Assembly (NCBI GenBank): GCA_963555825.3
Contig: CAUVXB020000002.1
Location: 2,816,001 to 2,880,000, forward strand
DNA from: Alphaproteobacteria bacterium
Lineage (GTDB): Bacteria; Pseudomonadota; Alphaproteobacteria; JAAXGF01
Direction: 5' to 3'
DNA: 64,000 nt
The translations under genes and the position numbers were made by a program. Below the pieces are notes generated by a model, which was not told where the DNA came from, searched no databases, and saw only the letters and a program-made list of their open reading frames with translations. Numbering within the stretch: the stretch's first letter is position 1; each line of letters starts with the position of its first letter. Positions 9,301 through 25,618 of the stretch are shown in pieces.

Positions 9301-11849
9301 CTGCCTTCGGCTGGCGTCACGCCCAGACGGTGAGCACTTTCGTCGATGGCCGAAGAGAGGTTCTCGCGGAATATGACGATCTCCGCGAAAGGACCCGCAT
9401 TGAAGGCGATGCCGTGGCGCTCAGCGGAGCCTACCGCGAGACGCTCACCCGCCATGCCGTGTTGCAGAAACAGGCAGCGGCCTTTCGCGCCCGGCCGGAC
9501 GACTTCGCGTCCCTGCTGGCCGAGCGCGGCGGCATTGCCCGCAAGGACCTCGACGCCTTCGAGGAACTCCACGCTCGCGCGCGACGCCACCAGCGAGCGG
9601 CCACGATGCGGCACGTGCATCGGATAAAGAAGGAAGCGGAACAGGAGGCACAACAACCGAAACCCGAATTGCGGCAAGGGGAGCTGGCGCTGGAGGGCGG
9701 CCGCGCCGAAGCGCCCATGCGCGCCGATACGGTGACGCGGGACACGGCCGGGATGCTGTCTTCGGATCGTGACGCAACACCGGCCCGGCACGTTGACACC
9801 GTCCCGCCGGTCGAAGCCGAAGATTACCCCTGGGCACATGCCGCGGCCGCGCAGGAGGATGTGCCGCCGCCCAGGCTGGACCAGGATCCCCCCAAGCCGG
9901 ACTGGCATGCGCCTTACGAAGCATTGTGGCGGGACTGGAGCGAACTGATCGAACGCGTCCGGCAAGCCGGGGAGCCGTTATTCTACGCCAAGGGCTACAT
10001 GGACATGATCCCACGTATTCAGGCGCTGGCGGAGAACCCGGATATCGCGGCCGAGACACGGGCGCCGATGATTGAGGCATTCGAAAAATACCAACGGGAT
10101 CTCTCGGCGCGCCAATACGTCGAGGACTATCTTGACGCCGCCGAACGGCACATGGACACGCATGCTTCCCTCCAGCGCGTCGCCGATGGCCTCGGCGTTC
10201 GGATCGTTGAGGTATCGGATCACCTGGGCTGGAGGCAGGAAGCGGACCGTCTGACGGAAGCGGCCGAGGCCATCCTCGCGGACGGCGAGACGTATGGCGT
10301 CCATCTCGACAATATGGAAACCGGCAGGGTGCGCGTGGAACGGGAGCTATCACGGCGGAGCCACGTCATCCGGGACGACGGCGAATATGCCTCTCAACGT
10401 AAGACATCGGAACCGCACAGCGAACCTGCGGATACACGGGAGAAAGTCGAACAACCGGAGCCCGCGAAGCCGGCCTGGATGCCAGCTTACGAAGCCTTGC
10501 GGCAGGACTGGAACAGCCTCATCGAAGGCGCCCGGCAAGCCGGTATGCCGTCATTCTACGCCAAGGGCTACATCGACATCATCCCGCGCATCCGGGAATT
10601 GACGGAGAACCCGGATATCCCAGCCAAGTCACGGGCGCCCTTGATCCGGGTCCTTGAGAATCACCAGCGCTATCTCTCGACCCGCAAACATATCCTGGAC
10701 TATCCGGGCGAAGTGGAACGGCACATGGATGCCCGGGCCTCTCTTCAAGACGTTGCGGGTGATCAGGAAATCGAGGTGACCGGGGTTCTGGCCTACCCGG
10801 ACTGGCGGCAGGAGGCCGAGCGCCTGACGGCGGCGTGCGAGGCCATCCTCTCCGGCAAGAGAACCTATGGCGCCCATCTTGACAGGATCGTGGATGCCAA
10901 GATGCACATGATAAGAGCGCTCTCGGAGCTTCGCGAGGCGACCCGGGATGATGACAAGGAACTGGCCGAACGGGCTGCCCGAGAGCTCCGACGCCAGCGA
11001 TTCCTCCACATGGCCGGTCCCCGGTTCGCATCGGATGACGGCGCCGCGCCGGACCCGGCGCGGGCCATGTCTAGCGGCGCCGCGCCTGTGCGGGCGGCGC
11101 TCTCCCGCTTCGGCCGCACCATTGGCCATCTCGTCGGCGGGCAGGACTACCACGATCGGCTGCGGACCGCGACCTTCGCGCGGGAGGCTCTGGAGCGATC
11201 GGAGGAACTGAAGCGGGACTGGAACCGCCAGGTGGATCGCGCCGCGGAGGAGGGCGTCCATGTCATCTACACGGATGGCTACGACCGTCTGCACAAGGAG
11301 CTCGACACCATCGCCGGAGACATGCTTCTGGATCGTGGCGTAAAATCGGAGATAAGCGCCGTGCTCGCTCAGCTCGGCAAGGCAATGTCAAACCGCAACT
11401 ATTTCGACAACTGGCCCAAGCTCATGGCGGGTCAGATGGACCGCCGCGAAGCGCTGGCGGCCAAGGCGGCCGAGCGGGGCGTGGCGGTTCCCGACCATGA
11501 GGACTACGACACATGGCGGAACGTGACCGACTTTGCGGTGGGCCGTTGCGAAGGACTCATGGACGACCCGGTGAATTACGGCATCCACCTAGATTACATC
11601 GCACTCCGAGAAGAGAGCCTCGGCTCAGCGCTCACGCGGGTGCGCGACGTGCTTGAAGACGACGACCGGCACCTCGCGGCAACCCTGGCAGGACAACGCG
11701 CGGGTGAGAGCCTCCAGATGCGCGAGGAGCGCGTCGCCCGCCTCCTCGACGATCCGGAGAAGCTCCGGGAGTTGCGGCAACAGCGCGCCGAGCGCAAGGC
11801 CGAAAGGCAGCAGCAGAGCAAGGGCCGGTATTGGAGCATGCGAATCTAG
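6360..11849 (+). CDS. MOBF (TrwC/TraI-type) relaxase-helicase with long repeated C-terminal extension
   Basis: YY...YY catalytic tyrosines, DMTFSADKSVS, HGTSRDNDPQLHTH (3H motif), Walker A GAAGSGKTT, DEAGM, and HGYALTITSAQG. Confidence 0.93.
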   Translation: MVATLAQAASAAYYLESQRSFRHPNEYYTAGEEPDGVWFNPNGLFGLVDGGKVDSSDFHRLYHGFAPNGGGKLTRNAGSERRSAGLDMTFSADKSVSALWAIADPELRSKIEDAHNGAARVALEETVLRHCAYTRIRNRDGEIEVLPADIAAAMFQHGTSRDNDPQLHTHCVIFNAARTHRDGKYRALHQHPVYTWMKAAGAVYRNALSWRLQERLGIRMEQYGKDGEFTRIAGIPEDLIGHWSKRRAAIIEAAREMGFTVEGNAPRAAAANKITRAGKSSDNDPEIRHRRWRGEAEGYVEREVLIASLLGKSEEITQEQIRALTEVLEDLPYRLTREEAVFRLPDIVERVGNATAGLLNHDAVATSIERVLLSPEVVRLTRPPRSAEGRADMAHTRLYSTRHNLHMEQEVRNMAEGMAADTGHSLSPQAIGAKVAGLLKAGYPLSEEQIAAIRSVTSSEGRVAIIEGAAGSGKTTTLRPIADLYREHGQSIIATAVAWRTAVALGNDVDARPFCVDKLLRLAARGGIGINKDTTIIVDEAGMLSTRQAHHILQLSERHGAKIVFAGDTQQQQPVEAGPGLRLIRDAVGSVRVDRIRRQKADLEDILTHVQGETPERARLLASSMAEERRTRILTYYESMKGKLVFMPWQVAASEALRDGDAAAAIAAHHLRGRFHIGYDEEKTLTSLVDDWDRYQRANPGKSSVVLARTRSEVRALSHLMRERRFASLPDGERADMDRAHADRVTVIVSRGTEDQRTTSPLEIARGDRLRIGATHWEKQLFNGTVVTVEDFKIERGEAATEPSVLISARTEDGRAVSFHHDEIRDWYGNIRLDHGYALTITSAQGLTVDRTFLLADARPSRETIYPAATRHRERLDIYVNRAPLTLDIADRRVDRRADNDREVAVTDTEIRAYLAERWSRSQPKEAALDNMADGIWEDRREDVREDRSRSPGEAQGEAGDIRAAANDNALARIARDVRRTAFGWRHAQTVSTFVDGRREVLAEYDDLRERTRIEGDAVALSGAYRETLTRHAVLQKQAAAFRARPDDFASLLAERGGIARKDLDAFEELHARARRHQRAATMRHVHRIKKEAEQEAQQPKPELRQGELALEGGRAEAPMRADTVTRDTAGMLSSDRDATPARHVDTVPPVEAEDYPWAHAAAAQEDVPPPRLDQDPPKPDWHAPYEALWRDWSELIERVRQAGEPLFYAKGYMDMIPRIQALAENPDIAAETRAPMIEAFEKYQRDLSARQYVEDYLDAAERHMDTHASLQRVADGLGVRIVEVSDHLGWRQEADRLTEAAEAILADGETYGVHLDNMETGRVRVERELSRRSHVIRDDGEYASQRKTSEPHSEPADTREKVEQPEPAKPAWMPAYEALRQDWNSLIEGARQAGMPSFYAKGYIDIIPRIRELTENPDIPAKSRAPLIRVLENHQRYLSTRKHILDYPGEVERHMDARASLQDVAGDQEIEVTGVLAYPDWRQEAERLTAACEAILSGKRTYGAHLDRIVDAKMHMIRALSELREATRDDDKELAERAARELRRQRFLHMAGPRFASDDGAAPDPARAMSSGAAPVRAALSRFGRTIGHLVGGQDYHDRLRTATFAREALERSEELKRDWNRQVDRAAEEGVHVIYTDGYDRLHKELDTIAGDMLLDRGVKSEISAVLAQLGKAMSNRNYFDNWPKLMAGQMDRREALAAKAAERGVAVPDHEDYDTWRNVTDFAVGRCEGLMDDPVNYGIHLDYIALREESLGSALTRVRDVLEDDDRHLAATLAGQRAGESLQMREERVARLLDDPEKLRELRQQRAERKAERQQQSKGRYWSMRI

Positions 11850-12189
11850 TCCGGCCTGGTCGCGCTGGCGACGAGATCGCGATTGCGTCGTTCATCGGAC
11901 GAAGGGAGTCCCCGACACGACAAGACCAAGGTGCGTCGGGTGTGAGAACCAACCGCCGAAGGGCGTCCCCATCCCGCTTCCTGACCGGTCAAGTGCTCGT
12001 GCATTGAAAGCCGTTGTGCAACCGGCATTTAGCCCGAGCGGCGCTTGAGCGGCAGCGCCCGCCGCGCCACCTGTGGAAACAGTCCCCGAACCGCCGCGCG
12101 GCTTCCGAGCGGCACTAAAGATCCTATGGGGCGAAATGGAGACCGGCGCTACGGTGCCGTTCTTGTGAACCCTCATCAGGAGATAGAAA

Positions 12190-13380
12190 ATGCCAGCAAG
12201 AAACAAAATCACCGCCGTACCGACCGACGTAGAACATAGAACGCTGTAAGTCGCGATCGAGATCAGCCGGAAGAGCTGGGTGGTTGGGCTCAAGAGCCCG
12301 GCGGGTGAGCGTATCGGCCTTCACCCGCTTGGCGCCGCAGATGTCGAGGGCCTCAAGACTCTAATTGAGCATCACCGGGCCAAGGCCAAACGGGCACTCG
12401 GCCGTGAGATGCGTGTTCTGTGCTGCTACGAGGCCGGGTACGAGGGGTTCTGGCTGACGCGTTGGCTGGACCAGGCCATGTCTGTCGAGATGATCGTGTT
12501 GGATCCTGCGAGCCTCCTGGTGAACCGGAAGGCAAAGCAGCGGAAGACGGACCGGATCGACGCGAAGAAGATGGTCCGTGCATTGCTGGCACACGACCGG
12601 GGCGACGCTGCCGTGTTGAGCCGGGTGCGGGTGCCAAGTGTGGACGAGGAGGACCGCAAGCGCCTGCTTCGGGAGCGCCAGCGGCTGGTGAAGGAGCGGA
12701 CATCGCTGACGAACTCGATCAAGGCGCTCCTGAAGCTGCATGGCCTCTTCGACTTGGAGCCTCGCTCCAAAGGGTTCGGGGCGAAGTTCGCCGAAGTGAA
12801 GACCGCATATGGATCGTCATTCCCGCCGCGAGCCCGGCAGGAGATCCTGCGGCTTGCGGAGCGCTTGGCACTGGTGGAGCGGCAGATCGCGCAGGTCGAG
12901 GCCGAGCGCAACGCAGTTGCCCGCCAAGGCGCGGAGCTTTCGCCGATGGAGGTGTCCGAGAATAGCGAAGCGCAGGCGGCGGTAAAGATTGCGACGCTGA
13001 CCCGGTTGAAGGGGATCGGCGCGAACGACGCAACCCTGCTGACCCATGAAATCTTCTGCCGCGGGTTCCGCAACCGCCGGGAGCTCGCGAGCTGGGTCGG
13101 CATGACGCCAACCCCCTGGGCGAGCGGTGTCATGGAACGCGATCAGGGGATCGGCCGCGACGGTCCCGCCTGGATCCGGGCCCAGCTCATTCAAATGGCA
13201 TGGCGCTGGTTGCGCCATCAGCCCGAAAGTGCGCTTTGCAAGTGGTTTGAAGAGCGTACTGCAGGAGCCCGGGGACGGATCCGCCGGGTGATGATCGTGG
13301 CGCTCGCCCGCAAACTTCTCATCGCCCTCTGGCGCTTCTGTGAGACCGGTCTCGTGCCAACGGGTGCACGCTGCGCCTGA
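12190..13380 (+). pseudogene. IS110 recombinase with in-frame TAA at codon 20
   Basis: ATG 12190 gives MPARNKITAVPTDVEHRTL*VAIEISRKSW, in frame with the track ORF at 12280. CYEAG, KTDRID, WASG and ALARKL motifs are present. TAA 12247-12249 aligns with the Tyr in element B's AIYAALELSK. Confidence 0.88.
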
Positions 13381-13419
13381 TCGATACGGGATCTACTAAT
13401 CCAGTCCGGCTGGATGTGG

Positions 13420-13690
13420 CCGAGGCTGGGCCGGGTGGATGTGTGACCGTGTGCTTCCTTGGCTGAAAGATGCCGCACTATAGAGGGGTCCCATCCTCCG
13501 GAACGCCACGCCCGCAGCAAGCGGGATCAGGGTTAGGACCCGGCTCCAAGTCGGGTGACAACCGGATACAAGGTGGGTTCGGTGTTGATCGCCGGCCGAT
13601 GTGGAGAAGCGTTCCGCGCCTGGAACATTGAACAAAGAAAGGAGTGATCGTGACAATGCATGAACCGTAGAAAACCACCCTTGACTTGGA
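13420..13690 (+). ncRNA. Putative bridge/seek RNA of IS110 element A
   Basis: Shares scaffold blocks with element B's non-coding region. The variable segment GCACTATAGA (13475-13484) matches the left junction GCACTAAAGA (12112-12121) at 9/10. Boundaries are approximate. Confidence 0.72.
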
Positions 13691-13930
13691 ATAACCGTTC
13701 GGCCAAGCCGTGGCTGCCCGGATGCGCGGAGACAGCGAATGGCCGCTGTGGCAGGAAACCGTGCGGCTCGACACTCGGACCTCACCCGCTGGTCGGACGC
13801 CTCCACAGCGTGACAGAAGGGATACGGCCCGGTAATCCTTCCGACACGCCGTGACCGCCGCTCTGCCTCGAATCAGCGCGGACAGGCGCGCGCCGCATTC
13901 CGGCGCGTTTGTCGGTTGCCCCTCCGCCCC

Positions 13931-14428
13931 TTACTCGATCATGGAGAAAATGATCGCCGGTACCAACGGCTCGCCGGCCGGCTGAATCGCCTCGATGCAC
14001 ATATTGGCGTCGGGGTTGCTGGCCGACATCATCACTTCCAGCACGTCGCCCGCCTCCATGGGAACGATACCCTGCGAAATGATGACGTCCTTCGCCATGC
14101 TGCCTTCGTCCTGGCAGAGCTGCACGTTGGAGTTGGCGACATCCGTGCCGTTGACCCGCAGCCACAGGTCGAAGCAGCCGTAGGGCCCCCCGCCCTCGCG
14201 CCCGACTTGCGGCGCGGCGACGATCAGATAGGGCCCGGCCTCGCCGACGGTCACCTTGTTGTTCGCCAGCGTGATGCCGTTGGCGGCATCGACGATGTCC
14301 ATCTCCACCAGCTTGGGCGCCTTGCCCGGGCACTGGGTAACCGAAGAGGAGGCCTGCAAGTACTGGCCGGCGTGCGCAACGCTCACCGACGCGCCAAGAG
14401 CCGCCAATGTCATGACGAGTTTCTTCAT
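13931..14428 (-). CDS. Secreted protein, probable C1q/TNF-like beta-sandwich (BclA C-terminal-like)
   Basis: Signal peptide MKKLVMTLAALGASVSVAHA, motifs GPYLI..Q, LWLRVNG and AGDVLEV, and four Cys. Confidence 0.65.
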   Translation of the reverse strand: MKKLVMTLAALGASVSVAHAGQYLQASSSVTQCPGKAPKLVEMDIVDAANGITLANNKVTVGEAGPYLIVAAPQVGREGGGPYGCFDLWLRVNGTDVANSNVQLCQDEGSMAKDVIISQGIVPMEAGDVLEVMMSASNPDANMCIEAIQPAGEPLVPAIIFSMIE

Positions 14429-14592
14429 GAGTTCTCTACCTCGCTGTTTTGCCATTGCCGATACGATTCACCCGGTCCGGCCCGCCCGCGCCTTGGCAGG
14501 GATTGTGCCTGAGATTTCCCATTATGGACACCTTATCGGCGAGTTGATTATAACTCGGAACCGCTCGCATTGCAACTGGCTTGCGTCCTGCG

Positions 14593-15905
14593 TGTCGATA
14601 ACACGTGATATGGCCGGTCAATGTAACAAATGATCTGTCCGGCATTAGAACTCCTCCAGAAAGTGGCGGAGCTGATGCGCCGGACAGAGCAGTTACAGGG
14701 GTTGAGATTGATGAAGTTCGATGAGGTTTACGGACGCACCTACAGGGGTGAGTTGAGCCAGCTGGAGGCAGCCGAGATCCTGGGCATGTCCGAGCGCACG
14801 TTCCGACGCTGGCGCGATCGCTTTGAGGCCGAGGGCGCGGAGGGTCTTTACGACCGCCGCCTGGGTCGGGTTTCCGCGCGCCGCGCCGGGGTCGACGAGG
14901 TGGTGGCACTGTTGGATCTGTTCGATACCAGGTACCGGCATTTCACCGCCTGGCACTTCTGGGAGAAGCTGGTTGCAAAGCACGACGTCACGCGCAGTTA
15001 CAACTGGGTGCGGCTGACGCTCCAGGCGCACGGCCGGATCGCGCCGGCGCCGCGGCGCGGCGTGCACCGCCGCAAGCGGCCGCGCCGGCCGATGGTCGGC
15101 ATGATGTTGCACCAGGACGGCTCCGCGCACCAATGGGTGCCGGGTCAGTACTGGGACCTGATCGTGACCATGGACGATGCCACTTCGGAGATCTATTCCG
15201 CCTTCTTCGTCGCCGAGGAGGGCACCATGTCGAGCTTTGTGGCGCTGCTGGAGGTGGGGTCGGCCATGGGGCTGTTCTGCTCGCTTTATGCAGACCGGGC
15301 CTCGCACTATTGGCACACGCCGGAGGCCGGCGGCAAGGTCGACAAGGACAATCCAACCCAGGTCGGACGTGCCCTGCAGCAACTCGGTATTGAGCTGATC
15401 CCGGCCTATTCGCCGGAGGCCCGGGGCCGCTCGGAGCGCATGTTCGGCACCCTGCAGAAACGCCTGCCGCAGGAACTCGAGCTCGCCGGCATCACCGATA
15501 TGGCGGCCGCCAACCGGTTCCTGAAAGAGGACTTCCTGCCGGCCCACAATGCCCGCTTCGCCCGGCCGGCCGAGGACACAGGCTCCGCCTTCGTGCCGTT
15601 CGCCGGCAACCTGGCGGACATCCTCTGTGTGCAGGAGGACCGTGTGGTCGGCAATGACAACACGGTGCGCTACAAGAACTTGAGCCTGCAGATCCCGGCA
15701 GGCCGCCATCGCCACCACTACGTCAAGGCCAAAGTGAGTGTGCACGAATATCCCGACGGCGACCTTGCCGTCTTCCATGGCCAGCGCTGCCTGGCCCGCT
15801 ACAAGAAAGACGGCACGCCGATCGAAAGCAGCGAAAGGCGGGCCGCGTGATCCGCTTCGACGCGACCGGCCGGCGCTCTGCGGATAAGTGGACAGCTCGA
15901 CTGCG
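14593..15905 (+). mobile_element. ISNCY (IS1202-group) element, right end truncated
   Basis: TGT left end with repeated TGATMTGKCCGG boxes. The sequence is cut at 15905 by an IS256 IR fragment. Confidence 0.75.
14675..15850 (+). CDS. ISNCY/IS1202-type DDE transposase
   Basis: N-terminal HTH, LHQDGS, TMDDAT, LYADR and SPEARGRSER motifs. Confidence 0.9.
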   Translation: MRRTEQLQGLRLMKFDEVYGRTYRGELSQLEAAEILGMSERTFRRWRDRFEAEGAEGLYDRRLGRVSARRAGVDEVVALLDLFDTRYRHFTAWHFWEKLVAKHDVTRSYNWVRLTLQAHGRIAPAPRRGVHRRKRPRRPMVGMMLHQDGSAHQWVPGQYWDLIVTMDDATSEIYSAFFVAEEGTMSSFVALLEVGSAMGLFCSLYADRASHYWHTPEAGGKVDKDNPTQVGRALQQLGIELIPAYSPEARGRSERMFGTLQKRLPQELELAGITDMAAANRFLKEDFLPAHNARFARPAEDTGSAFVPFAGNLADILCVQEDRVVGNDNTVRYKNLSLQIPAGRHRHHYVKAKVSVHEYPDGDLAVFHGQRCLARYKKDGTPIESSERRAA

Positions 15906-15923
15906 GAGCTATTGTCAAAAGTT
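15906..15923 (-). repeat. Orphan outer 18 bp of an IS256 right IR
   Basis: GAGCTATTGTCAAAAGTT is identical to 16172-16189. Confidence 0.9.
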
Positions 15924-16171
15924 GACGGGGCGGTAAAAAGTTGTTGGCCGATGGCGTGCTTGTACAGGTCTTTGCGGTTCGGTGAAGAATATTTGCCTGT
16001 CTCCGCGTTGCTGGTGGATAAAACCTGATATTACCTACCCTTGGCTTCTCCTTGGCTTCGTTTTTTATGGTGCGATTGCCGCGCAGCGTCGGATATTGAG
16101 GCCGAGGGCACGCAGATTGACCACGTAGCGCATGGCCGGCATGCCGCGAATGCGTAGGTGAGCCAGGTTCA

Positions 16172-17546
16172 GAGCTATTGTCAAAAGTTGTGTATGGGCT
16201 GATCATGCGGCGGCGCGATCCTGGCGTTCTCCATCTACGAATTTGACGCCGCGAATGATCTCGGCGAGATGGTTCGATCCATCGAGTTTTCTCCATTTTC
16301 TCTGAGCGCACTGGCATAGTTTGAAGACCATGGCCATCGCCGTCTTGCGCGACAGGCAGCCCTTGGTCCGGTAGGTGCGCAGACGAACCGTGGCGAACGT
16401 GCTCTCGATGGGGTTGGTCGTGCGTACATGCTTCCAGTGCTCGGCGGGGAAGTCGTAGAACGTCAGCAGGACGTCGCGGTCCTTGGCCAGGCAGGCCGCG
16501 GCCTTGTCGTACTTCGGCCCGTAGGCTTCCAGGAAGAAGTCGAAGGCGCTCTCGGCATCCTTCCTGGTTTCGGCCATCCAGATGTCTTGCAGGCGCCCCT
16601 TGGCTTTCTTTTGCAGACCCTTGGGCAGCTTGTTCAAGACGTTGCCCGTCTTGTGAACCCAGCAGCGTTGCTCGCGGGCGCCTGGGTAGACTTGGCGGAG
16701 CGCCTTCCAGAAGCCGAGCGCGCCGTCGCCGAGCGCCAGTTGCGGACCCATTTCAAGGCCGCGCCGCTTGAGATCGAGCAGAACTTCGAGCCAGGACTGC
16801 TCACTTTCGCGATAGCCGTCGGCGATGGCGATCAGTTCCTTCTGTCCCTTGTCCGTGGCCCCGACGATCACCAGGATGCACTGCTTCTCTTCCTCCATGC
16901 GGGCGCTGAAATAGATGCCGTCCACCCAGAAATAGACGTAGCGCTTGGCCGTGAGGTCGCGCCGTTGCCAGCGCTCCGCCTCAACCCCCCAGACCTCTTT
17001 CAGCCGGGTGATCGTGGAGGCCGAAAGCCCCGGCGCGGAGCTCCCCAGGAGCGCCGCCAAGGCTTCCCCGAAGTCGCCGGTGGAAATGCCCTTCAGATAC
17101 AGCCATGGCAAAAGGTCTTCCAGGCTCTTGGCGCGGCGCAGATAGCGCGGCAGGATCGCCGACGTGAAGCGGATGGCGCCGTCCCCCCGGTCCCGCACAC
17201 GGGGTTGGCGCACGCTCACCGGGCCGATCCCGGTCTGGATGAAGCGTTCCGGCAGATATCCATTGCGGACAACCCGGCGGCGGCCGGCGGCGTCAACAAG
17301 CGCCGCATGGCTACCCAAAAACACGGAGACCTCGGCCTCAACGGCTTGGGCCAACAACTCGCGAGCTCCAGCTTGTAGGACTTCCGTCAACGGATCTTTC
17401 TGAAAATCAGATGGGTTTTGAAAAGCAACAACGGTATTCTCTTTCATGGCGTATCCTTCCTTGGCTTAGCTCAAGTGGTGACATCAACAATCACCAGGAT
17501 ACGCCGCCTTCATTTCAACGCCGTACACAAGATTCGGTTATAGCTC
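16172..17546 (-). mobile_element. IS256-family element, copy 1 (complete, 9-bp TSD)
   Basis: IRs GAGCTATTGTCAAAAGTTGTGTA / GAGCTATAACCGAATCTTGTGTA, with direct repeat CCAGGTTCA at 16163-16171 and 17547-17555. Confidence 0.96.
16203..17447 (-). CDS. IS256 (Mutator-type) transposase
   Basis: RNGY, FWVDG, GDGALG, QRCWVH and RTTNPIES motifs. Confidence 0.95.
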   Translation of the reverse strand: MKENTVVAFQNPSDFQKDPLTEVLQAGARELLAQAVEAEVSVFLGSHAALVDAAGRRRVVRNGYLPERFIQTGIGPVSVRQPRVRDRGDGAIRFTSAILPRYLRRAKSLEDLLPWLYLKGISTGDFGEALAALLGSSAPGLSASTITRLKEVWGVEAERWQRRDLTAKRYVYFWVDGIYFSARMEEEKQCILVIVGATDKGQKELIAIADGYRESEQSWLEVLLDLKRRGLEMGPQLALGDGALGFWKALRQVYPGAREQRCWVHKTGNVLNKLPKGLQKKAKGRLQDIWMAETRKDAESAFDFFLEAYGPKYDKAAACLAKDRDVLLTFYDFPAEHWKHVRTTNPIESTFATVRLRTYRTKGCLSRKTAMAMVFKLCQCAQRKWRKLDGSNHLAEIIRGVKFVDGERQDRAAA

Positions 17547-19108
17547 CCAGGTTCATCTGGTACTTTAATCGCGACATGGTCGCTTCTATGCCGGCCCGCC
17601 ATCTGTAGACGTTGCGGAAGGCATCGCTTTGTTCATAAAGCCGGCGCTTTTGGTTGGCAGCCCTGGCCGGGGTATATTGAAAGCGGGAAAATTGGCCGTC
17701 ACGCTTGGCCGCCTGCACGGGACATCGCAGTATATCGGGACATTTTTGGCAGATGGAGAGGTCGAAACGGGCCTGCAGCTTGGCTTTGGCGAGCGAGGCT
17801 GAAACCGGTTCGACGTTATTGGGACAGCGCAAGACCAAGCCTTCTTCGTTGAGAGTGAAATCCTCCAACGTCAACCGTCCCGAGACGGCGCCTTTCGGCG
17901 GTCGTGCGGGCGCCACGAGATTGATGTTCTGTTCGCGCGTCAGAGCCATGTTGTCACTGGAACCGTAATGTGAATCACCCAGCATCACCGCCGGCGTCAG
18001 CGCGCGCTCGCTCAGATCATCCAGCGCATCGGCTAAGCGATGGCCGTCATGCACCGTCATCTTGTGGACCTCCACGTGGGTGATGAGGTCCGGTGTCGCG
18101 GCAACCGCCTCGTTACTGACATCTTCACAATAGGTTTCGACGATCTGCGCCATGTATCCTTGACCCTTGTGCGCGTTGTAGCTCGCGTCCGGGTCGGCCG
18201 GATTGCCGACGGTATCGCACGGCACATCCTTTGGATCTCGAATCGCGGCGCGCGTTGCGTCACGATCGCCATACTCATCATCAACGATCTCGAACTGATC
18301 GCGCAGAACCCTCTCCAGGATCGCAAAACTGAAAAGCTTTGCCGCCGCCGTGTCACGGAATTGCAGCACCAGGGCTAGGAGATACTGACCCGCTTCGCCG
18401 AGGCGCCGTTTTGAAACACTCGGCGCCGTATTCGCGAACGCGCCATTACCCTCGCGATCGACATAGCGGCGGATCACCTCCTTGCTGATCTGCTCGTGCA
18501 GACCGGGATGATATCGCTCAAGCTCACGGGCAAACTTCGAGATGCTCTCAACAACGATACCAAGTCGTGTCAGCGCCCGCATTGCCGAACGAAGGGCCGT
18601 CGAATCCATGCGTTGGTGGCTGGTATCGACAGAGAACCCCTGCACCAGCCGATCCGTCAAACACCGGAACAGCAATTCATCGAGACCTTGTTCGATAAAC
18701 AGACGGCGATAGTTGCGCAGGGTTTTCTCACAGAAATAGCTGTCCGCTTCGCTGCGCACGTCCAAGGCATAGTGCCACGCCATATTGAAGGCCAGGGCCT
18801 CGACGGTCTCTGCATCGCTCAGATCGTGCAGCTGCTGCAAAAGCAAGACCCCGATGACAACGTGTAGATCCTTCGATGGTCGGCCCATGCGTTCATCAAG
18901 GTGACGGCAAAGATCGTCAACCGGAAGTTCGACAAGCAGATGGTTCCGAAAAACCCCGGCCCAGGATTGCTCCATCAGGCGCCGACGTTTGTCCCCGAAA
19001 TCGGACCAGCGATCAAACAATTCCCCAGTCCGTCGGTCGCGTAAAGTAAACATGCACAATTATAATCCAGCCGACTCTCATGAGGAATCGACTTTTTACC
19101 GCCCCGTC

Positions 19109-20472
19109 GAATCTTGTGTACGGCGTTGAAATGAAGGCGGCGTATCCTGGTGATTGTTGATGTCACCACTTGAGCTAAGCCAAGGAAGGATACGCCATGA
19201 AAGAGAATACCGTTGTTGCTTTTCAAAACCCATCTGATTTTCAGAAAGATCCGTTGACGGAAGTCCTACAAGCTGGAGCTCGCGAGTTGTTGGCCCAAGC
19301 CGTTGAGGCCGAGGTCTCCGTGTTTTTGGGTAGCCATGCGGCGCTTGTTGACGCCGCCGGCCGCCGCCGGGTTGTCCGCAATGGATATCTGCCGGAACGC
19401 TTCATCCAGACCGGGATCGGCCCGGTGAGCGTGCGCCAACCCCGTGTGCGGGACCGGGGGGACGGCGCCATCCGCTTCACGTCGGCGATCCTGCCGCGCT
19501 ATCTGCGCCGCGCCAAGAGCCTGGAAGACCTTTTGCCATGGCTGTATCTGAAGGGCATTTCCACCGGCGACTTCGGGGAAGCCTTGGCGGCGCTCCTGGG
19601 GAGCTCCGCGCCGGGGCTTTCGGCCTCCACGATCACCCGGCTGAAAGAGGTCTGGGGGGTTGAGGCGGAGCGCTGGCAACGGCGCGACCTCACGGCCAAG
19701 CGCTACGTCTATTTCTGGGTGGACGGCATCTATTTCAGCGCCCGCATGGAGGAAGAGAAGCAGTGCATCCTGGTGATCGTCGGGGCCACGGACAAGGGAC
19801 AGAAGGAACTGATCGCCATCGCCGACGGCTATCGCGAAAGTGAGCAGTCCTGGCTCGAAGTTCTGCTCGATCTCAAGCGGCGCGGCCTTGAAATGGGTCC
19901 GCAACTGGCGCTCGGCGACGGCGCGCTCGGCTTCTGGAAGGCGCTCCGCCAAGTCTACCCAGGCGCCCGCGAGCAACGCTGCTGGGTTCACAAGACGGGC
20001 AACGTCTTGAACAAGCTGCCCAAGGGTCTGCAAAAGAAAGCCAAGGGGCGCCTGCAAGACATCTGGATGGCCGAAACCAGGAAGGATGCCGAGAGCGCCT
20101 TCGACTTCTTCCTGGAAGCCTACGGGCCGAAGTACGACAAGGCCGCGGCCTGCCTGGCCAAGGACCGCGACGTCCTGCTGACGTTCTACGACTTCCCCGC
20201 CGAGCACTGGAAGCATGTACGCACGACCAACCCCATCGAGAGCACGTTCGCCACGGTTCGTCTGCGCACCTACCGGACCAAGGGCTGCCTGTCGCGCAAG
20301 ACGGCGATGGCCATGGTCTTCAAACTATGCCAGTGCGCTCAGAGAAAATGGAGAAAACTCGATGGATCGAACCATCTCGCCGAGATCATTCGCGGCGTCA
20401 AATTCGTAGATGGAGAACGCCAGGATCGCGCCGCCGCATGATCAGCCCATACACAACTTTTGACAATAGCTC
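19109..20472 (+). mobile_element. IS256-family element, copy 2 (first 11 bp of left IR missing)
   Basis: Begins GAATCTTGTGTA (IRL nt 12 onward) flush against the IS1182-like end. The right IR ends at 20472. Confidence 0.93.
19197..20441 (+). CDS. IS256 transposase
   Basis: Protein identical to 16203-17447. Confidence 0.95.
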   Translation: MKENTVVAFQNPSDFQKDPLTEVLQAGARELLAQAVEAEVSVFLGSHAALVDAAGRRRVVRNGYLPERFIQTGIGPVSVRQPRVRDRGDGAIRFTSAILPRYLRRAKSLEDLLPWLYLKGISTGDFGEALAALLGSSAPGLSASTITRLKEVWGVEAERWQRRDLTAKRYVYFWVDGIYFSARMEEEKQCILVIVGATDKGQKELIAIADGYRESEQSWLEVLLDLKRRGLEMGPQLALGDGALGFWKALRQVYPGAREQRCWVHKTGNVLNKLPKGLQKKAKGRLQDIWMAETRKDAESAFDFFLEAYGPKYDKAAACLAKDRDVLLTFYDFPAEHWKHVRTTNPIESTFATVRLRTYRTKGCLSRKTAMAMVFKLCQCAQRKWRKLDGSNHLAEIIRGVKFVDGERQDRAAA

Positions 20473-20648
20473 CGTTCCTGACCGCGATACGCGAACAATA
20501 CGGAATAATCGAACGGCACCACATGGCGTAATGCCTGAACCAGTACAGCCGGAAGCCGTGGCGTGTCTTCCGCCGAAATAACCTGCGCAATTTGGCCATG
20601 CCAACTGCGGGTATCCAATTTTTGGATCGTGTTTGGGCCATTAGTCAT
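20473..20648 (-). pseudogene. N-terminal fragment of a probable LuxR-type regulator, cut by IS256
   Basis: MTNGPN...WHGQIAQVI...ALRHVVPFDYSVLFAYRGQER resembles the sensor N-terminus of LuxR-HTH regulators. Confidence 0.55.
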
Positions 20649-20865
20649 GGCTGGCGGTAATATCCCTTCTCCAGTGTCAATGGCGGAGCAAAAAGGGACC
20701 ACCTCGGCGGTGTAAGAAGGGACCGCTTGGCGGCTGCGGGCTTGTCCCCGTAGTCCACGGGAGGGCCCCGCGCGCGACGCGGCGTGCCCTCAACAGGCTG
20801 ACGCGGCGGCGCGCGCGGGAGGGACCTGTGGGCCCACGGGGTCAAGCGTGGGCTGGGTGGTCGGT

Positions 20866-21630
20866 TCAGTTAGCAGTCGGGGTTTGACGCCTGCGGCTCT
20901 GGTTGAGCCTGTAGCTGTCACCGTTCATCTCGAGGATGTTGACGTGGTGGGTGAGGCGATCGAGGAGCGCGCCGGTGAGGCGCTCGGAGCCGAACACCTC
21001 GGTCCATTCGTCGAAGGGCAGATTGGTGGTGACCAGGGTCGAGCCCCGCTCGTAGCGTTGGCTGAACACCTCGAACAACAGCTCGGCGCCGGTCTTCGAC
21101 AGCGGCACGAAGCCGAGTTCGTCGACGATCAGAAGCTTGTAGGTGGCGAGCTTCTTCTGGAACCTCAGCAGCTGCTTGTCATCGCGGGCCTCGATGAGTT
21201 CGTGGACCAGCGCGGCGGCGGTGATGAAGCCGACCGAGAGGCCCTTCTGGCAGGCCGCCAGGCCGAGACCGAGGGCGATGTGGGTCTTGCCGGTCCCACT
21301 GTTGCCGAGCGCGATGAGGTTCTCGCGGCGCTCGATGTACTCGCAGCGGGCCAGCTCCAGGACCAGCGCCTTGTTGAGCGAGGGGATGACCTTGAAGTCG
21401 AAGCTGTCGAGGCTCTTGACCACGGGGAAGCGCGCCGCCTTGATGCGCCGCTCGACCATGCGGCGCTCGCGGTCGATCAGCTCGAGCTCGGCGAGTCTCA
21501 ACAGGTAGCGGACGTGATCGACGCCTTCCGAGGCGCACTGCCGGGCGATCTTGTCGTACTCGCGCAGGAAGGTCGGCAGCTTCAGCGTCTTGAGGTGGTG
21601 GGCGAGCAGCACTTGCGGTGTGTCGGTCAT
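20866..21630 (-). CDS. istB: IS21 ATPase IstB
   Basis: Protein identical to copy 1. Confidence 0.95.
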   Translation of the reverse strand: MTDTPQVLLAHHLKTLKLPTFLREYDKIARQCASEGVDHVRYLLRLAELELIDRERRMVERRIKAARFPVVKSLDSFDFKVIPSLNKALVLELARCEYIERRENLIALGNSGTGKTHIALGLGLAACQKGLSVGFITAAALVHELIEARDDKQLLRFQKKLATYKLLIVDELGFVPLSKTGAELLFEVFSQRYERGSTLVTTNLPFDEWTEVFGSERLTGALLDRLTHHVNILEMNGDSYRLNQSRRRQTPTAN

Positions 21631-22289
21631 GCGCCGAGCCCCGACAGCAGGCTCATGTACGACTTGGCGGACGTCATCGCGACCCGGGCGCGCGGCAGAT
21701 ACGGATAGACGTCGAGGTTGAGCCTGGGCGGCCGCCGCTCGATGCGGCACAGTACCAGGTGCTTCACCGCATCAAAGCCGATTGCGCCGAGCCGCAGGGC
21801 GTCGCCGACCGCACCCTCGACCTCCTCGAGCCGGAAGGTCTCCAGTAGACGGAGCACCTGGACGTACTCGCGCTTGCCTGCCTTGCCCATACGAGCTTCG
21901 AGGAGCCGCCGCAGAGTGATGAAGGCCTCGGGCAGGTCCCAGCCCGCCAATGGCGCGGCCTGGTCGAGGGCGCCGATCTTCTGCTCGATCAAGGGCAGGT
22001 AATGCAGCGGGTCGAAGATCAGGTCCTCGCTGTCGTAGGACCGGCGGTGCCGGGCGATCACCTCGGCCCCGCAGCTGATCACCACCTCATCGACGTAGCC
22101 CCGGATGAGCACCTCACGGTGGCCGTAGGCCACGGGCACGGAATAGTCGTTGCTGCGGTAACGCACCAGCGACAGCGAACTCGCCCGTCCAGGGCGCTTA
22201 TCGCAGGCATCATAGGGAGCAGGCGGCAATGGCAAGAGAACTTGACGATCCCGCTCGAGACGCTCGCCGATGGTCTCCTTATATGAGGC

Positions 22290-22595
22290 GTTTGCTGTCA
22301 AGGTGGATTTAATCTACGCCACATGATCGTCTCTTCCATTGGTTATGGCTTTGTATCCAGGGCGGGTCTTGCGATGAGTTCCGTGTTTCGTGCGAGTGAT
22401 CGCATCACCTTATATCCGGCAGCTCCGATCCGGCTTGCCACAATGCTGTATACATGGACCATCACAGGACGGGGATGGGACTAATCTTGTGGACGGCACC
22501 TTCGCCAAGGAGACATGCAGTCACACATCCAACCTGCCAACAAGCGTTCCCATCGGGGAATGAAGCCCGTTAGAACGCTGAGCTGATCCGCAGTC
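22290..22595 (-). ncRNA. Putative bridge/seek RNA of IS110 element B
   Basis: Contains GUCUCCUU (22507-22514) and CCACAAG (22486-22492) matching both halves of the target, plus AGCAU (22443-22447) and AUAUAAG (22409-22415) matching the element ends. Boundaries are approximate. Confidence 0.82.
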
Positions 22596-23729
22596 CTATT
22601 TGACGACAGCACCCACCGGGATCAGCCCGGTTTCCAGATACCGCCAAAGCGCGATCGCCAGTTTGCGGGCCAGGGCGACGATCATGACGCGCCTGATGCG
22701 CCCCTTCTGACCTTGGGTGCGGTCATGGAACCACTGGGTCAGAGCGCTATCGGGTTGATGGCGGACCCAAAGCCATGCGGCTTCGATCATGGCAACCCGT
22801 GCCAGCCGATTGCCCGCCTTGGAGATGCCTTGGCTGCGGCGCCCGTCGCCGCTGTCATAGGCACTGGGCGTGATCCCGATATAGCTTGCCACCTGTCGGC
22901 GATTGGCGAACTGGCGATAATAGACTTCCCGTGCGAGCGTCGTGGATAAGGCCGGGCCGAGGCCCTTTAAGCGCAGCAGCTGGTGACGCTTGCTTTCCGT
23001 GGCCACACACGGTGTCGGCGCTTGATCACGCTCACGCTCGACCTCGACGATCTGCGCTTGGACCTGGGCCAGTCTCGCGATCTCCCGCGCGATCTCGCGG
23101 CCGAGACGGTCCGGCAGGGGTCGGCCGTCTCCGGTGACCAGCGCCGCCGGTGTCAAGGTCTTGTAGCGCGCCTTGACATTGATGCCGCGAATGCCCTGAC
23201 CGAATAGCAGACCCTTGATCCGGTTGATGTGGGCGGTTCGCTCGCGGACCAATCGGTCACGTTCCCGATGAGAGCGGCGAAGGTCCTCCTCCGCGACGCT
23301 CGGAATCACCACCATGGAGCAGACATGACGCTCGCCGCGGCACCAGGCGATCAGCGTATGAAGAATATTCTCGACATCGATGCGGTCGGTCTTCACCCGC
23401 CGCGCCCGGCGGTTGACCCGCAAGCTGGCCGGCTCCATGACCAGACACTCGATGCCGCGCTGCTCGAGGAACCGCGCCAACCAGAAGCCGTCGTAGCCGG
23501 CCTCGTAGCACAGCGTTATCGTCGGCGTTCGACCCGTCACCTTGACCACCCGGTCCCGCGCCGCGTCCAGCTTGGCCATCAGTCCTTCAGCGTCGCCGCC
23601 CTTGATCGGATGCAAGCTCGGATTGCCCCGCCCCGGAGCCTGGATCGCCAAAAGCCAGCTGTTCTTGCTCAACTCCAGTGCCGCATAAATAGCGTGTTCA
23701 TTGGAGGTCGATACCGGAAACTGTGCCAT
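22596..23729 (-). CDS. IS110 recombinase/transposase
   Basis: ALELSK, CYEAG, KTDRID, YDSG, ISKAGN and ALARKL motifs. Confidence 0.95.
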   Translation of the reverse strand: MAQFPVSTSNEHAIYAALELSKNSWLLAIQAPGRGNPSLHPIKGGDAEGLMAKLDAARDRVVKVTGRTPTITLCYEAGYDGFWLARFLEQRGIECLVMEPASLRVNRRARRVKTDRIDVENILHTLIAWCRGERHVCSMVVIPSVAEEDLRRSHRERDRLVRERTAHINRIKGLLFGQGIRGINVKARYKTLTPAALVTGDGRPLPDRLGREIAREIARLAQVQAQIVEVERERDQAPTPCVATESKRHQLLRLKGLGPALSTTLAREVYYRQFANRRQVASYIGITPSAYDSGDGRRSQGISKAGNRLARVAMIEAAWLWVRHQPDSALTQWFHDRTQGQKGRIRRVMIVALARKLAIALWRYLETGLIPVGAVVK

Positions 23730-24889
23730 CGTGTCGCTCCTTCTGATCGAGGTTGAAATAATCGAAGGAGCTTGAGGCTGCGTCCTTCAGCCTCATAGCA
23801 TCTTGTGGCCCCGCAGCCGCGCCGCCTGGCGCCGGCGGCACTGTTCGGCGAGAGCATCGTTGAGGGCCGCGAAGCTCTCGGCACGCGGGACGGGGACCAG
23901 GAAGTTCCGCCGGATGAAGCCGACCAGTCCCTCGACCTTGCCCTTGTCGTTGCCCTTGCCCGGCCGGCCGAACCTGTCCTCGAACAGATAGTGGGACTGA
24001 AGCTCCGTGAAGACGCGCGTTCGCTGCCGCTTCCCATCGCCCAGGATCCGGGCAACCGCCAGCTTGGTGTTGTCGTACAGGATGGATCGGGGGACGCCGC
24101 CGAAGAAGGCAAACGCCGCGTTGTGGCCATCGCAGAATGCTTCGGTCGTCTCCGCCGGATAGGCCGCAACAAAGCAACCATCACTGTGGGGAAGGTCGAA
24201 GGCAAGGAAGTGGATCTTCCGTAACGCGCCGCCGATCACCGCCATCGCTTCGCCGAAGTCCGCCTGGGCGTGACCGGGGGAATGGGAGAGTGGCACGAAC
24301 ACCTCACGCGACCGAAGCCCCTGCTCACGAACGTAGTCCTTCACGATGGTGTAGCCGCCCGTGAAACCGTACTCGTCCCGGAGGCGGTCGAAGATGCGCT
24401 TCGCAGTGTGCCGTTGCTTGCGGTGGCTGGTCCGATCGTCTTCCAAGATCCGATCGATGATTCCCGTGAACGGACCCAGCTTTGGCCGCCTCGGCGGCGC
24501 GCTTCGGCGATACCCTGGCGGCACCGAGAACGACAGCATCTTACGGACCGTCTTGCGGTCTACACCAAACACCCGCGAGGCCTCGCGGGTGCTCATCCCC
24601 TCGACATGACACGCCCGCCGAACCCGTGCGTACAACTCCACCCGATACATCCCCCCCGCCTTCCAGTCAGAGCAACCCTGACAGAAGGCTATACGCGGTC
24701 CCATTTTGGTCCGCCGCAGCCGGATCGACCGGCCGCTTCAGTGGGGGATTATTGCTCTGCCGTTCTCACCTGCCGTCGTAACAAAATCCTGCCTTGGAGC
24801 GGCCCATTGTCACGAATAGCCGATTTCGGCCGTTCGTCTCGACACAAAAAACGCACTAAATCAATGACTTAGATTTTCCATACCAGACC

Positions 24890-25618
24890 CACACCCCTCA
24901 AGACCATGAATTCGGCTGCATCGTCAAGCGGGCCGACGGTGGTTTCATTGCCGGAACCAATGCCGGACTGGTGCATCTGGACGCCAATCTGAAATCACTC
25001 GATATATTCGCCACCCCTGAAACCGAATTTCCGAACAACCGGTTCAATGATGGAAAATGCGACCGCCGAGGGCGGTTCTGGGTCGGCAGTACGGACATGG
25101 ATGAAACGGAACCGAACGGCGCGCTCTATCGGGTGAACGGCACCGGCGACGTTTTTCGGATGATCCCCGGTGTGATCGTCTCCAACGGCCTGGGCTGGGG
25201 CCCCGACGACAAAATCATGTACTTCACCGATAGCGGCCATGGCGCGATCTACGCGTTTGATTTTGATGTGGACACGGGCGAGATCGACAACCGGCGGGAA
25301 TTTGCCCGGGTTGCTCCGGCCGATGGCATGCCCGATGGACTGGCGGTGGATGCGCAAGGTTTCGTGTGGGGCGCCCATTGGGGCGGCTGGCGAATCACCC
25401 GTTACGATCCGGACGGACGGATTGATCGAGTTATCGACATGCCGGTGCCGCAGGTGACGAGCGTCGCGTTCGGTGGGGTCGGTCTGGATCAGATGTTCGT
25501 CACCACGGCGCGGCTCGGACTGACGAAGGACCAGCTGAACGAGGCCCCCTTGTCCGGTGGTCTGTTCATGATCGATGCGGGCGTCGCCGGACTGCCGGAA
25601 ATTCCCTATCAGAATTGA
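24890..25618 (+). pseudogene. SMP-30/gluconolactonase family, 5'-truncated
   Basis: RFNDGKCD, SNGLGW, PDGLAVD and TSVAFGG motifs. The N-terminal GEGP region is absent, and upstream lies an IS-end-like sequence (...TTTTCCATACCAGACCC). Confidence 0.8.

What the first reader, a model, noticed from the sequence alone, without database searches (positions are those of the whole stretch)
13420..22595. Two divergent IS110 non-coding regions share a scaffold and differ at the guide positions: a natural reprogramming pair
Seen: elements A (13420-13690, plus strand) and B (22290-22595, minus strand) share ordered blocks TGGATGTGTGAC, CCTTGGC, TGCCG, GTCCCATCC, CCGGATAYAAGGTG, CCTGGA, CGTAGA and CCACC(C)TTGAC. 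Between the blocks, A has GCTTCCTT / GCACTATAG / TAGGA / ATACAAG where B has GTCTCCTT / GTCCACAAG / AGCAT / ATATAAG. Each set tracks its own element's junctions. In A the left flank is GCACTAAAG (12112-12120) and the left end is TCCTA (12122-12126). Inference: this covariation within one window defines the guide architecture of this subfamily, with the right-target guide placed 5' of the left-target guide.
Basis: partly seen in the sequence, partly recalled or inferred. Interest (0 to 1): 0.85.

Follow-up and report, generated by a model that had tools for sequence, protein, structure and literature searches.

The report
Two IS1111-type bridge RNA elements
Two related jumping genes in this window each carry, behind their recombinase gene, a folded RNA whose variable loops spell out the insertion site and the element's own ends, which is the already published bridge/seekRNA mechanism seen here in an undescribed subfamily.

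Summary
Both non-coding regions lie 3' of IS110-family recombinase genes, and all eight scaffold blocks occur in order. The variable blocks are guides. In 80 homologous loci, the left-target guide matches its own flank at 4.72 of 6 positions against 1.77 for other loci. The right-target guide scores 6.43 of 8 against 3.51. No shuffle of 10,000 reached either value. The left-donor guide equals the right end in 45 of 45 loci.

One assignment is wrong. The five letters at 13534-13538 in A are one strand of a covarying helix. The homologous donor guide is at 13524-13527.

A is a dead relic with a stop at codon 20 and no right end. Its guides still match an empty target found elsewhere in the genome and in another genus, 9 of 9 and 7 of 8. 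B is active: 11 intact copies, 7 of them inside IS21.

The architecture, including the reversed guide order, was published in 2024 (PMC11187229, PMC11208160). This is a new member of a known kind. First-reader notes from an overlapping window of this same genome describe the same two elements.

The parts
12112..12120 (+). Left half of A's target (flank next to the left end)
   Evidence: Matches the guide at 13475-13483 at 8 of 9 positions. Empty copies of this site match 9 of 9.
12121..13689 (+). Element A, a decayed IS1111-type element whose right end is missing
   Evidence: The left end and the subterminal repeat at 12125-13133-type position (12125-12133) resemble those of 32 homologues. No right-end motif lies downstream or anywhere else in the genome. 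A is single-copy in the genome.
12190..13380 (+). A's recombinase pseudogene, with an in-frame stop at 12247-12249
   Evidence: The translation has one internal stop at codon 20. That codon is a Tyr in homologues. Pfam PF01548 and PF02371 and NCBIfam NF033542 match.
13434..13499 (+). A's target-binding domain: basal helix 13434-13448 with 13487-13499, enclosing both target guides and a small hairpin at 13461-13474
   Evidence: The helix shows compensatory changes in 65 sequences.
13450..13460 (+). A's right-target guide, complementary to the top strand
   Evidence: This is a variable block. Its reverse complement matches the empty sites' right half at 7 of 8. Family-wide, own flanks score 6.43 of 8 against 3.51 for other loci.
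13475..13483 (+). A's left-target guide, same sense as the top strand
   Evidence: It matches the occupied flank at 8 of 9 and the empty sites at 9 of 9. Family-wide, own flanks score 4.72 of 6 against 1.77.
13524..13527 (+). A's right-donor guide, complementary to the first four letters of the left end
   Evidence: These alignment columns are the reverse complement of left-end letters 1-4 in 50 of 54 rows.
13531..13563 (+).
   Evidence: Five of its six pairs show compensatory changes. Only 1 of 32 rows with the same left end carries those five letters.
13566..13572 (+). A's left-donor guide, which predicts the lost right end
   Evidence: In homologues the guide 7-mer equals the right end in 45 of 45 loci across six variants.
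13500..13615 (+). Long-range helix (13500-13506 with 13609-13615) that closes the donor domain as a multiloop
   Evidence: At least 7 of 8 pairs occur at a fixed distance in 46 of 53 rows outside the B-like clade, with several compensatory variants (the count was made by eye from its printed rows).
22278..23801 (-). Element B, an intact 1,524-bp IS1111-type element inserted in an IS21 istA gene
   Evidence: The genome holds 11 full copies, 8 of them identical to this one. Contigs from 4 runs join 22277 to 23802, which is the empty IS21 site. Subterminal repeats lie at 23790-23797 and 22282-22289.
22596..23729 (-). B's recombinase gene (377 aa)
   Evidence: Pfam PF01548 and PF02371 match. NCBIfam NF033542 scores 204 bits against a cut-off of 140. 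The C-terminal domain aligns to IS621 and ISCro4 structures.
22507..22516 (-). B's right-target guide
   Evidence: Its reverse complement matches the right flanks of all 12 right junctions over the core-side letters and five flank letters. It extends to seven flank letters in 3 of the 4 non-IS21 sites.
22486..22494 (-). B's left-target guide
   Evidence: It matches the IS21 flank at 8 of 9 and the four other full insertion sites at 9, 7, 6 and 6 of 9.
22443..22447 (-). B's right-donor guide
   Evidence: It is the reverse complement of the left end at 23801-23797 and sits in the same alignment columns as A's 13524-13527.
22409..22415 (-). B's left-donor guide
   Evidence: It is identical to the right end at 22284-22278.
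23802..23810 (-). Left half of B's target in IS21 istA; the right half starts at 22277 and runs down
   Evidence: The genome holds 69 empty copies of the joined site.

Best explanation
Both regions encode the guide RNA (bridge RNA, or seekRNA) of IS1111-type members of the IS110 family. The RNA is read from the recombinase strand, downstream of the gene.

Its first domain is a basal helix enclosing an internal loop. The 5' side of the loop is complementary to the top strand of the right half of the target. The 3' side has the sense of the top strand of the left half plus the AG core, so it pairs with the bottom strand.

Its second domain is a multiloop closed by a long-range helix. It holds a 4-nt stretch complementary to the element's left end and a 7-nt stretch identical to its right end. 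Together these two stretches read the joined ends of the excised circle.

The recombinase uses the RNA to bring circle and target together and to exchange strands at the AG.

Shown here: the scaffold, its helices, the guide positions, their covariation with flanks and ends, B's recent activity, and A's decay. Inferred from the published family: that the molecule acts as RNA, binds the recombinase, and works through a circular intermediate.
For: Family: Pfam PF01548 and PF02371 match both proteins. NCBIfam NF033542, named 'IS110 family RNA-guided transposase', scores above its cut-off for both.

Scaffold and helices: in 65 aligned sequences, 95.1% of cells are paired against 81.4% in shuffles and 30-50% with slid partners. 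Eleven pairs show compensatory change. Of the 1,166 cells, 82 are G-U pairs, which would be A-C mismatches on the other strand. This points to the recombinase strand as the one transcribed.

Guides:
- Left target: own flanks 4.72 of 6, other loci 1.77, over 50 distinct pairs; 0 of 10,000 shuffles reached the observed value.
- Right target: own flanks 6.43 of 8, other loci 3.51, over 44 pairs; 0 of 10,000.
- Left donor: 45 of 45 loci exact, across six variants.
- Right donor: 50 of 54 rows.

B: 11 full copies, all with open frames, of which 4 lie at independent non-IS21 sites that share the guide-matching letters.

A: the target predicted from its guides exists as the only such site in the 6-Mb genome, and also in genome G008.

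Literature: IS1111 elements carry the non-coding region downstream of the gene, with the top-strand match 5' of the bottom-strand match (PMC11187229, abstract and section 9). A donor multiloop is reported for IS1111 bridge RNAs (PMC11208160, passage).
Against: No direct RNA evidence was obtained. Contigs from RNA libraries cover B's non-coding region but cannot show transcription or RNA ends.

No Rfam family matches at E <= 1. B's single-sequence fold is no more stable than its shuffles (z = +1.67).

The right-donor guide shows only three sequence classes, and these follow clades, so few independent changes support it.

Some loci fit poorly. The right-target score is 3-4 of 8 in 4 of 44 pairs, and the left-target score is 3 of 6 in 5 of 50 pairs.

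The register between the right-target guide and the flank shifts by 1-3 nt among loci.

A itself cannot work, because its gene is broken and one end is missing.
Confidence: 0.9

Rival explanations
1. The matching blocks act at the DNA level, for example as single-strand DNA pairing or protein-read repeats of the target kept inside the element. No RNA is involved.
For: Sequence alone cannot tell RNA from DNA pairing. The guides match both strands of the target symmetrically. No RNA ends were seen.
Against: The helices keep pairing through 82 G-U cells, which only work in RNA of the recombinase strand. Relatives co-purify with an RNA derived from the non-coding region that is essential and reprogrammable (PMC11187229 abstract).
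Confidence: 0.04
2. The shared scaffold is an ordinary conserved 3' untranslated structure, such as a terminator or a stability element. The variable loops drift neutrally, and the matches to the flanks in A and B are chance.
For: The single matches are short, at 5 to 9 letters.
Against: Own-against-other tests across about 50 loci gave 0 of 10,000 shuffles for both target guides, and 45 of 45 for the left-donor guide. A's target predicted from its guides was found as an empty site.
Confidence: 0.01
3. A is intact, and its right flank in the window is the original one.
For: Short complementary stretches flank A on both sides (note e1-6378761).
Against: Two empty copies of the site, a paralogue and genome G008, continue to the right with letters that match A's guide, not with what now follows A. 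Similarity to the window stops exactly at 12120. A lacks the right subterminal repeat and terminal letters seen in 47 homologue rows. Rfam finds no intron.
Confidence: 0.03

Closest known systems
IS1111-family elements with a seekRNA (ISEc11, ISPa11, ISKpn4, ISPst6; Siddiquee et al. 2024, PMC11187229)
   Same: The long non-coding region lies downstream of the recombinase gene. Subterminal inverted repeats are present. The G-x-x-P-x4-SG motif is present. Two short target matches occur in the RNA, with the top-strand match 5' of the bottom-strand match.
   Different: The recombinases here are longer: 377 aa, and 396 codons for A, against the 330-350 aa given for the family. A Glu occupies the first acidic motif in 73 of 74 relatives. 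No named element was matched, because ISfinder is not on hand. Supplements of the paper were closed, so I could not compare folds.
IS621 / IS110-group bridge RNA (Durrant et al. 2024, PMC11208160; structures 8wt6, 9t56)
   Same: The RNA has two domains, one reading the target and one reading the joined ends. Each domain carries one guide per strand around a dinucleotide core. The C-terminal domain with its SG motif aligns to the solved structures.
   Different: Here the RNA lies at the 3' end, not the 5' end. The guide order is reversed. The core is AG. The donor guides sit in a multiloop rather than a simple internal loop, as that paper notes for many IS1111 members. The right-target guide mostly does not pair with the core, and its register varies.
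ISPpu9 / ISPpu10 (IS110 group; PMC12288879, passages)
   Same: Recombination occurs at an invariant AG dinucleotide at both ends. Insertion is into palindromic repeats. The targets of A and of several B-like loci are also hairpins.
   Different: Those elements carry the bridge RNA upstream of the gene and lack subterminal repeats.
IS4321 / IS5075 (IS1111 family; known to me only from reference titles seen)
   Same: They are IS1111-type elements that insert into another mobile element, as B does into IS21.
   Different: Their target is the terminal repeat of Tn21-type transposons. B's target is inside the istA reading frame. I did not read that paper.

Membership tests
IS110 family (RNA-guided DEDD recombinases) | N-terminal RuvC-like DEDD domain plus the C-terminal IS116/IS110/IS902 domain | tested here: met
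   PF01548 and PF02371 match both proteins above their cut-offs. NF033542 scores 204 and 180 bits against a cut-off of 140.
IS110 family (RNA-guided DEDD recombinases) | Conserved SG in the C-terminal domain | tested here: met
   SG is invariant between A and B and aligns to the same stretch of IS621 and ISCro4.
IS110 family (RNA-guided DEDD recombinases) | Asp as the first residue of the DEDD tetrad | tested here: inconclusive
   The motif at that place carries Glu in 73 of 74 relatives. I did not align it residue by residue to a solved structure, because the N-terminal part gave no PDB alignment.
IS1111 group | Long non-coding region downstream of the recombinase gene | tested here: met
   About 310 nt follow the stop codon in both elements, against about 70 nt before the start.
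IS1111 group | Subterminal inverted repeats of 7-17 bp | tested here: met
   B has 8 bp at 23790-23797 and 22282-22289, four letters in from each end. The same holds in homologues. Only the left copy survives in A.
IS1111 group | G-L/I-x-P-x4-S/T-G motif | tested here: met
   The motif is present in both proteins in the alignment. It is as described in section 6 of PMC11187229.
Bridge RNA / seekRNA | Guides that covary with target flanks on both strands | tested here: met
   Own-against-other scores, with 0 of 10,000 shuffles for each target guide.
Bridge RNA / seekRNA | Guides that match the element's own two ends (the donor) | tested here: met
   The left-donor guide is exact in 45 of 45 loci. 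The right-donor guide fits in 50 of 54 rows, with few independent changes.
Bridge RNA / seekRNA | Conserved secondary structure that presents the guides in loops | tested here: met
Bridge RNA / seekRNA | An RNA is made, processed and bound by the recombinase, and is required for insertion | not testable with these tools
   Only contigs of RNA libraries were available. They cover the region but show neither strand nor ends.
Bridge RNA / seekRNA | Circular intermediate with joined ends | not tested
   No joint from the right end to the left end was listed. Contigs cannot show absence.

The most novel reading that the evidence does not exclude
This alphaproteobacterial subfamily may be a mechanistically distinct branch of bridge recombinases. 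It has Glu in place of the first catalytic Asp. Its top-strand target guide skips the core and sits in a sliding 1-3 nt register. Its donor is read by only 4 + 7 nt from a three-way multiloop closed by a long-range helix. In two clades a conserved ribosome-site-plus-ATG mini-frame lies between the RNA and the right end. If these traits change the order or geometry of strand exchange, or couple translation to RNA processing, the subfamily would widen what bridge systems can do.
Probability: 0.12. Interest if true: 0.55.

Novelty: new member of a known kind. Interest (0 to 1): 0.3.

Why it matters
The locus gives a clean natural data set for an uncharacterised IS1111-type subfamily: about 45 distinct target guides with their sites, six donor variants, and three supported helices. 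It includes one recently active element (B) with 69 empty and several filled sites in a single genome. It also includes a fossil element (A) whose guides still predict its target. This is useful for building a covariance model and for choosing a compact 3'-encoded bridge system to test. It does not change the understanding of the mechanism.

Tried and rejected
It lies in a helix, and only 1 of 32 rows with the same left end carries it.

A search for A's right end downstream and genome-wide found nothing.

The Rfam scan of 11000-25000 at E <= 1 gave no match.

The sigma-70 promoter scan over B found none, and its one terminator-like hit is at the chance level.

A junction promoter was considered. 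The conserved five letters at 13681-13685 and 22301-22297 look like a -35 box. By counting, the best -10-like letters in the left end would lie about 21-22 nt away. I therefore make no claim.

One search was a translation started one base off and is useless. It was redone.

One search failed on a length limit and was redone. Single-sequence folding gives no support for B (z = +1.67).

The RNA-library contigs cover B and its non-coding region and join across the empty IS21 site. They cannot show transcription, strand or ends, and depth differences between parts are not evidence.

Fragment C (genome contig C1, about 1793716-1794228) was left out of all tests because its 5' part is missing.

Rows dropped before the counts:
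- 10 of 79 non-coding regions had no recognisable left-donor motif.
- 22 of 69 guide rows had no recognisable right junction.
- One row had a flank that was too short.

Complex prediction, structure prediction and the large protein searches were not used.


Full report
What is there.

The window holds two IS110-family elements. Element A starts at 12121 on the plus strand, and element B spans 23801 down to 22278 on the minus strand. Both recombinases carry PF01548 and PF02371. Both exceed the cut-off of NCBIfam NF033542, whose name is 'IS110 family RNA-guided transposase'. The two proteins are 45% identical. In each element about 310 nt of non-coding DNA follow the stop codon.

No Rfam family matches.

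Element B is alive.

- It is 1,524 bp long and has 8-bp subterminal inverted repeats four letters in from each end.
- It splits an IS21 istA gene. The two halves of that gene give rve (below its cut-off) and Mu-transposase C-terminal matches, and istB follows.
- The genome holds 14 left ends and 12 right ends of B.
- It holds 11 full-length copies. Eight are identical to the window copy, two differ by one letter, and one is 1,526 bp. All 11 keep the 377-codon frame open.
- Seven of the 11 sit in the same IS21 site, of which 69 empty copies remain. Four sit elsewhere.
- Those four other sites share the first five right-flank letters with the IS21 site. Three of the four extend the match to the guide to seven letters.
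- The left flanks of those four sites match the 9-nt guide at 9, 7, 6 and 6 positions. The IS21 flank matches at 8.
- Contigs from four runs join 22277 to 23802, skipping 1,524 letters. This is the empty IS21 site.

Element A is a fossil.

Its reading frame has a single internal stop at codon 20, at 12247-12249. That position is a conserved Tyr in its relatives. After 13689 it lacks the right subterminal repeat and terminal letters that 47 homologue rows possess. No such end exists anywhere in the genome. A is single-copy.

The homologue test.

A scan of one genome per species returned 80 loci with 39-89% protein identity to B. After extracting the regions behind the stop codons, 66 distinct regions aligned well. 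The scaffold is conserved, and four blocks are hypervariable or vary in step with the ends.

I defined the junctions independently of the guides, from the conserved end motifs.

- Left-target guide: across 50 distinct guide/flank pairs (55 loci), it matches its own flank at 4.72 of the 6 informative positions and other loci's flanks at 1.77.
- Right-target guide: across 44 pairs (45 loci), it scores 6.43 of 8 against 3.51.
- In both tests none of 10,000 shuffles reached the observed sum.
- Left-donor guide: it equals the last seven letters of the right end in 45 of 45 loci, across six different variants.
- Right-donor guide: its four columns are the reverse complement of the first four left-end letters in 50 of 54 rows. 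These fall into only three classes that follow clades.

The fits are not perfect. Four of 44 right-target pairs score only 3-4 of 8, and five of 50 left-target pairs score 3 of 6. The offset between the right-target guide and the flank varies by 1-3 nt.

Correction of one assignment.

The five letters at 13534-13538 are the reverse complement of 12122-12126. However, they align to a different place than B's donor guide. Among 32 rows with the same left end, only A carries them, and 17 different words occupy those columns. Those columns form one strand of a helix (13531-13537 with 13558-13563) in which five of six pairs show compensatory change. The homologous guide in A is at 13524-13527. An earlier first-reader note on an overlapping window had proposed the same (e1-6378762). 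I reached it from the alignment and tested it.

A's target recovered.

From A's two target guides I predicted the undisturbed site. Exactly one place in the 6-Mb genome fits. It is a paralogue of A's left flank on contig C2 near 646,955. Its similarity to the window (92% over about 390 nt) ends exactly at 12120. A genome of another genus in the same family (G008) has the same empty site. Both empty sites match the left-target guide at 9 of 9 and the right-target guide at 7 of 8.

What now follows A in the window is therefore not the original flank. The site lies about 270 nt downstream of a TrwC-type relaxase gene and within a short hairpin.

Structure.

RNAalifold and pair counting on 65 sequences support three elements:
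- a basal helix that encloses both target guides;
- a small hairpin between the two target guides;
- a helix between the two donor guides.

Across these, 95.1% of cells are paired, against 81.4% in shuffles and 30-50% with slid partners. Eleven pairs show compensatory change. Eighty-two of the 1,166 cells are G-U pairs, which favours transcription of the recombinase strand.

A further long-range helix (13500-13506 with 13609-13615 in A) closes the donor part as a multiloop. It reaches at least 7 of 8 pairs at a fixed distance in 46 of 53 rows outside the B-like clade, with several compensatory variants (my count from its rows).

Single-sequence folds show the same first domain, but for B the fold is no more stable than its shuffles.

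Comparison with what is known.

Siddiquee et al. report that IS1111-type elements carry the non-coding region downstream of the gene. They report that it yields a seekRNA which co-purifies with the transposase, is essential and is reprogrammable. They also report that the top-strand match lies 5' of the bottom-strand match, the reverse of the IS110 type. I read the abstract and sections 6, 9 and 13 of PMC11187229.

Durrant et al. predicted bridge RNAs in the right end of 93% of IS1111 elements. They note that donor-binding letters often sit in a multiloop. I read passages of PMC11208160.

An AG crossover dinucleotide and palindromic targets are described for ISPpu9. I read passages of PMC12288879.

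What is new is only this subfamily's particular layout. Supplementary figures of these papers were closed, so a named relative may already be drawn there.

Verdict.

This is a real and well-supported pair of IS1111-type guide-RNA regions, one live and one fossil.

Noticed in passing
window 21627-24704 (minus strand) and genome-wide: B's commonest target is a site inside the istA reading frame of an IS21-family element. Seven full B copies occupy it and 69 copies remain empty. This is one insertion sequence disabling another.
   Followed up: partly
L001-L080 and window 12250-12265, 23680-23665: The first acidic motif of the recombinase carries Glu, not Asp, in 73 of 74 relatives. It was not mapped onto a solved structure.
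   Followed up: partly
window 13630-13675 and 22345-22300 (minus); loci: A purine-rich ribosome-site-like stretch plus an ATG opens a frame of 2-8 codons. The ATG sits at a fixed 21-29 nt before the conserved five letters near the right end. It occurs in 17 of 46 distinct loci against 5.4 expected from shuffles, in the A-like and B-like clades only. Its function is unknown.
   Followed up: partly
window 13681-13685 and 22301-22297 (minus): A -35-like word is conserved 13-15 nt before the right subterminal repeat in nearly all loci that have a right end. The spacing to any -10-like word across the joined ends looks too long for a standard junction promoter.
   Followed up: no
genome contig C1 about 1793716-1794228: A third related element, missing its 5' part, has its own set of guides and an intact right end. 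It lies next to a Mutator-type transposase gene.
   Followed up: partly
L001, L002, L004, L008 left flanks; contig C2 near 1770109: Targets of B-like elements are hairpins. The left flank holds, 13-15 nt upstream, the inverted complement of the right flank. The top-strand guide therefore repeats the left arm of the target hairpin.
   Followed up: no
window 6360-11849 and contig C2 about 647,000; genome G008: A TrwC-type relaxase gene of 1,829 aa has a paralogous copy whose downstream 270 nt are 89-92% identical. The similarity ends at A's insertion point.
   Followed up: partly
window 15900-20450: Two identical Mutator/IS256-type transposase genes (414 aa) lie in inverted orientation around an IS5/IS1182-type transposase gene. 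Earlier notes e1-6375378 and e1-6378763 discuss this region.
   Followed up: no
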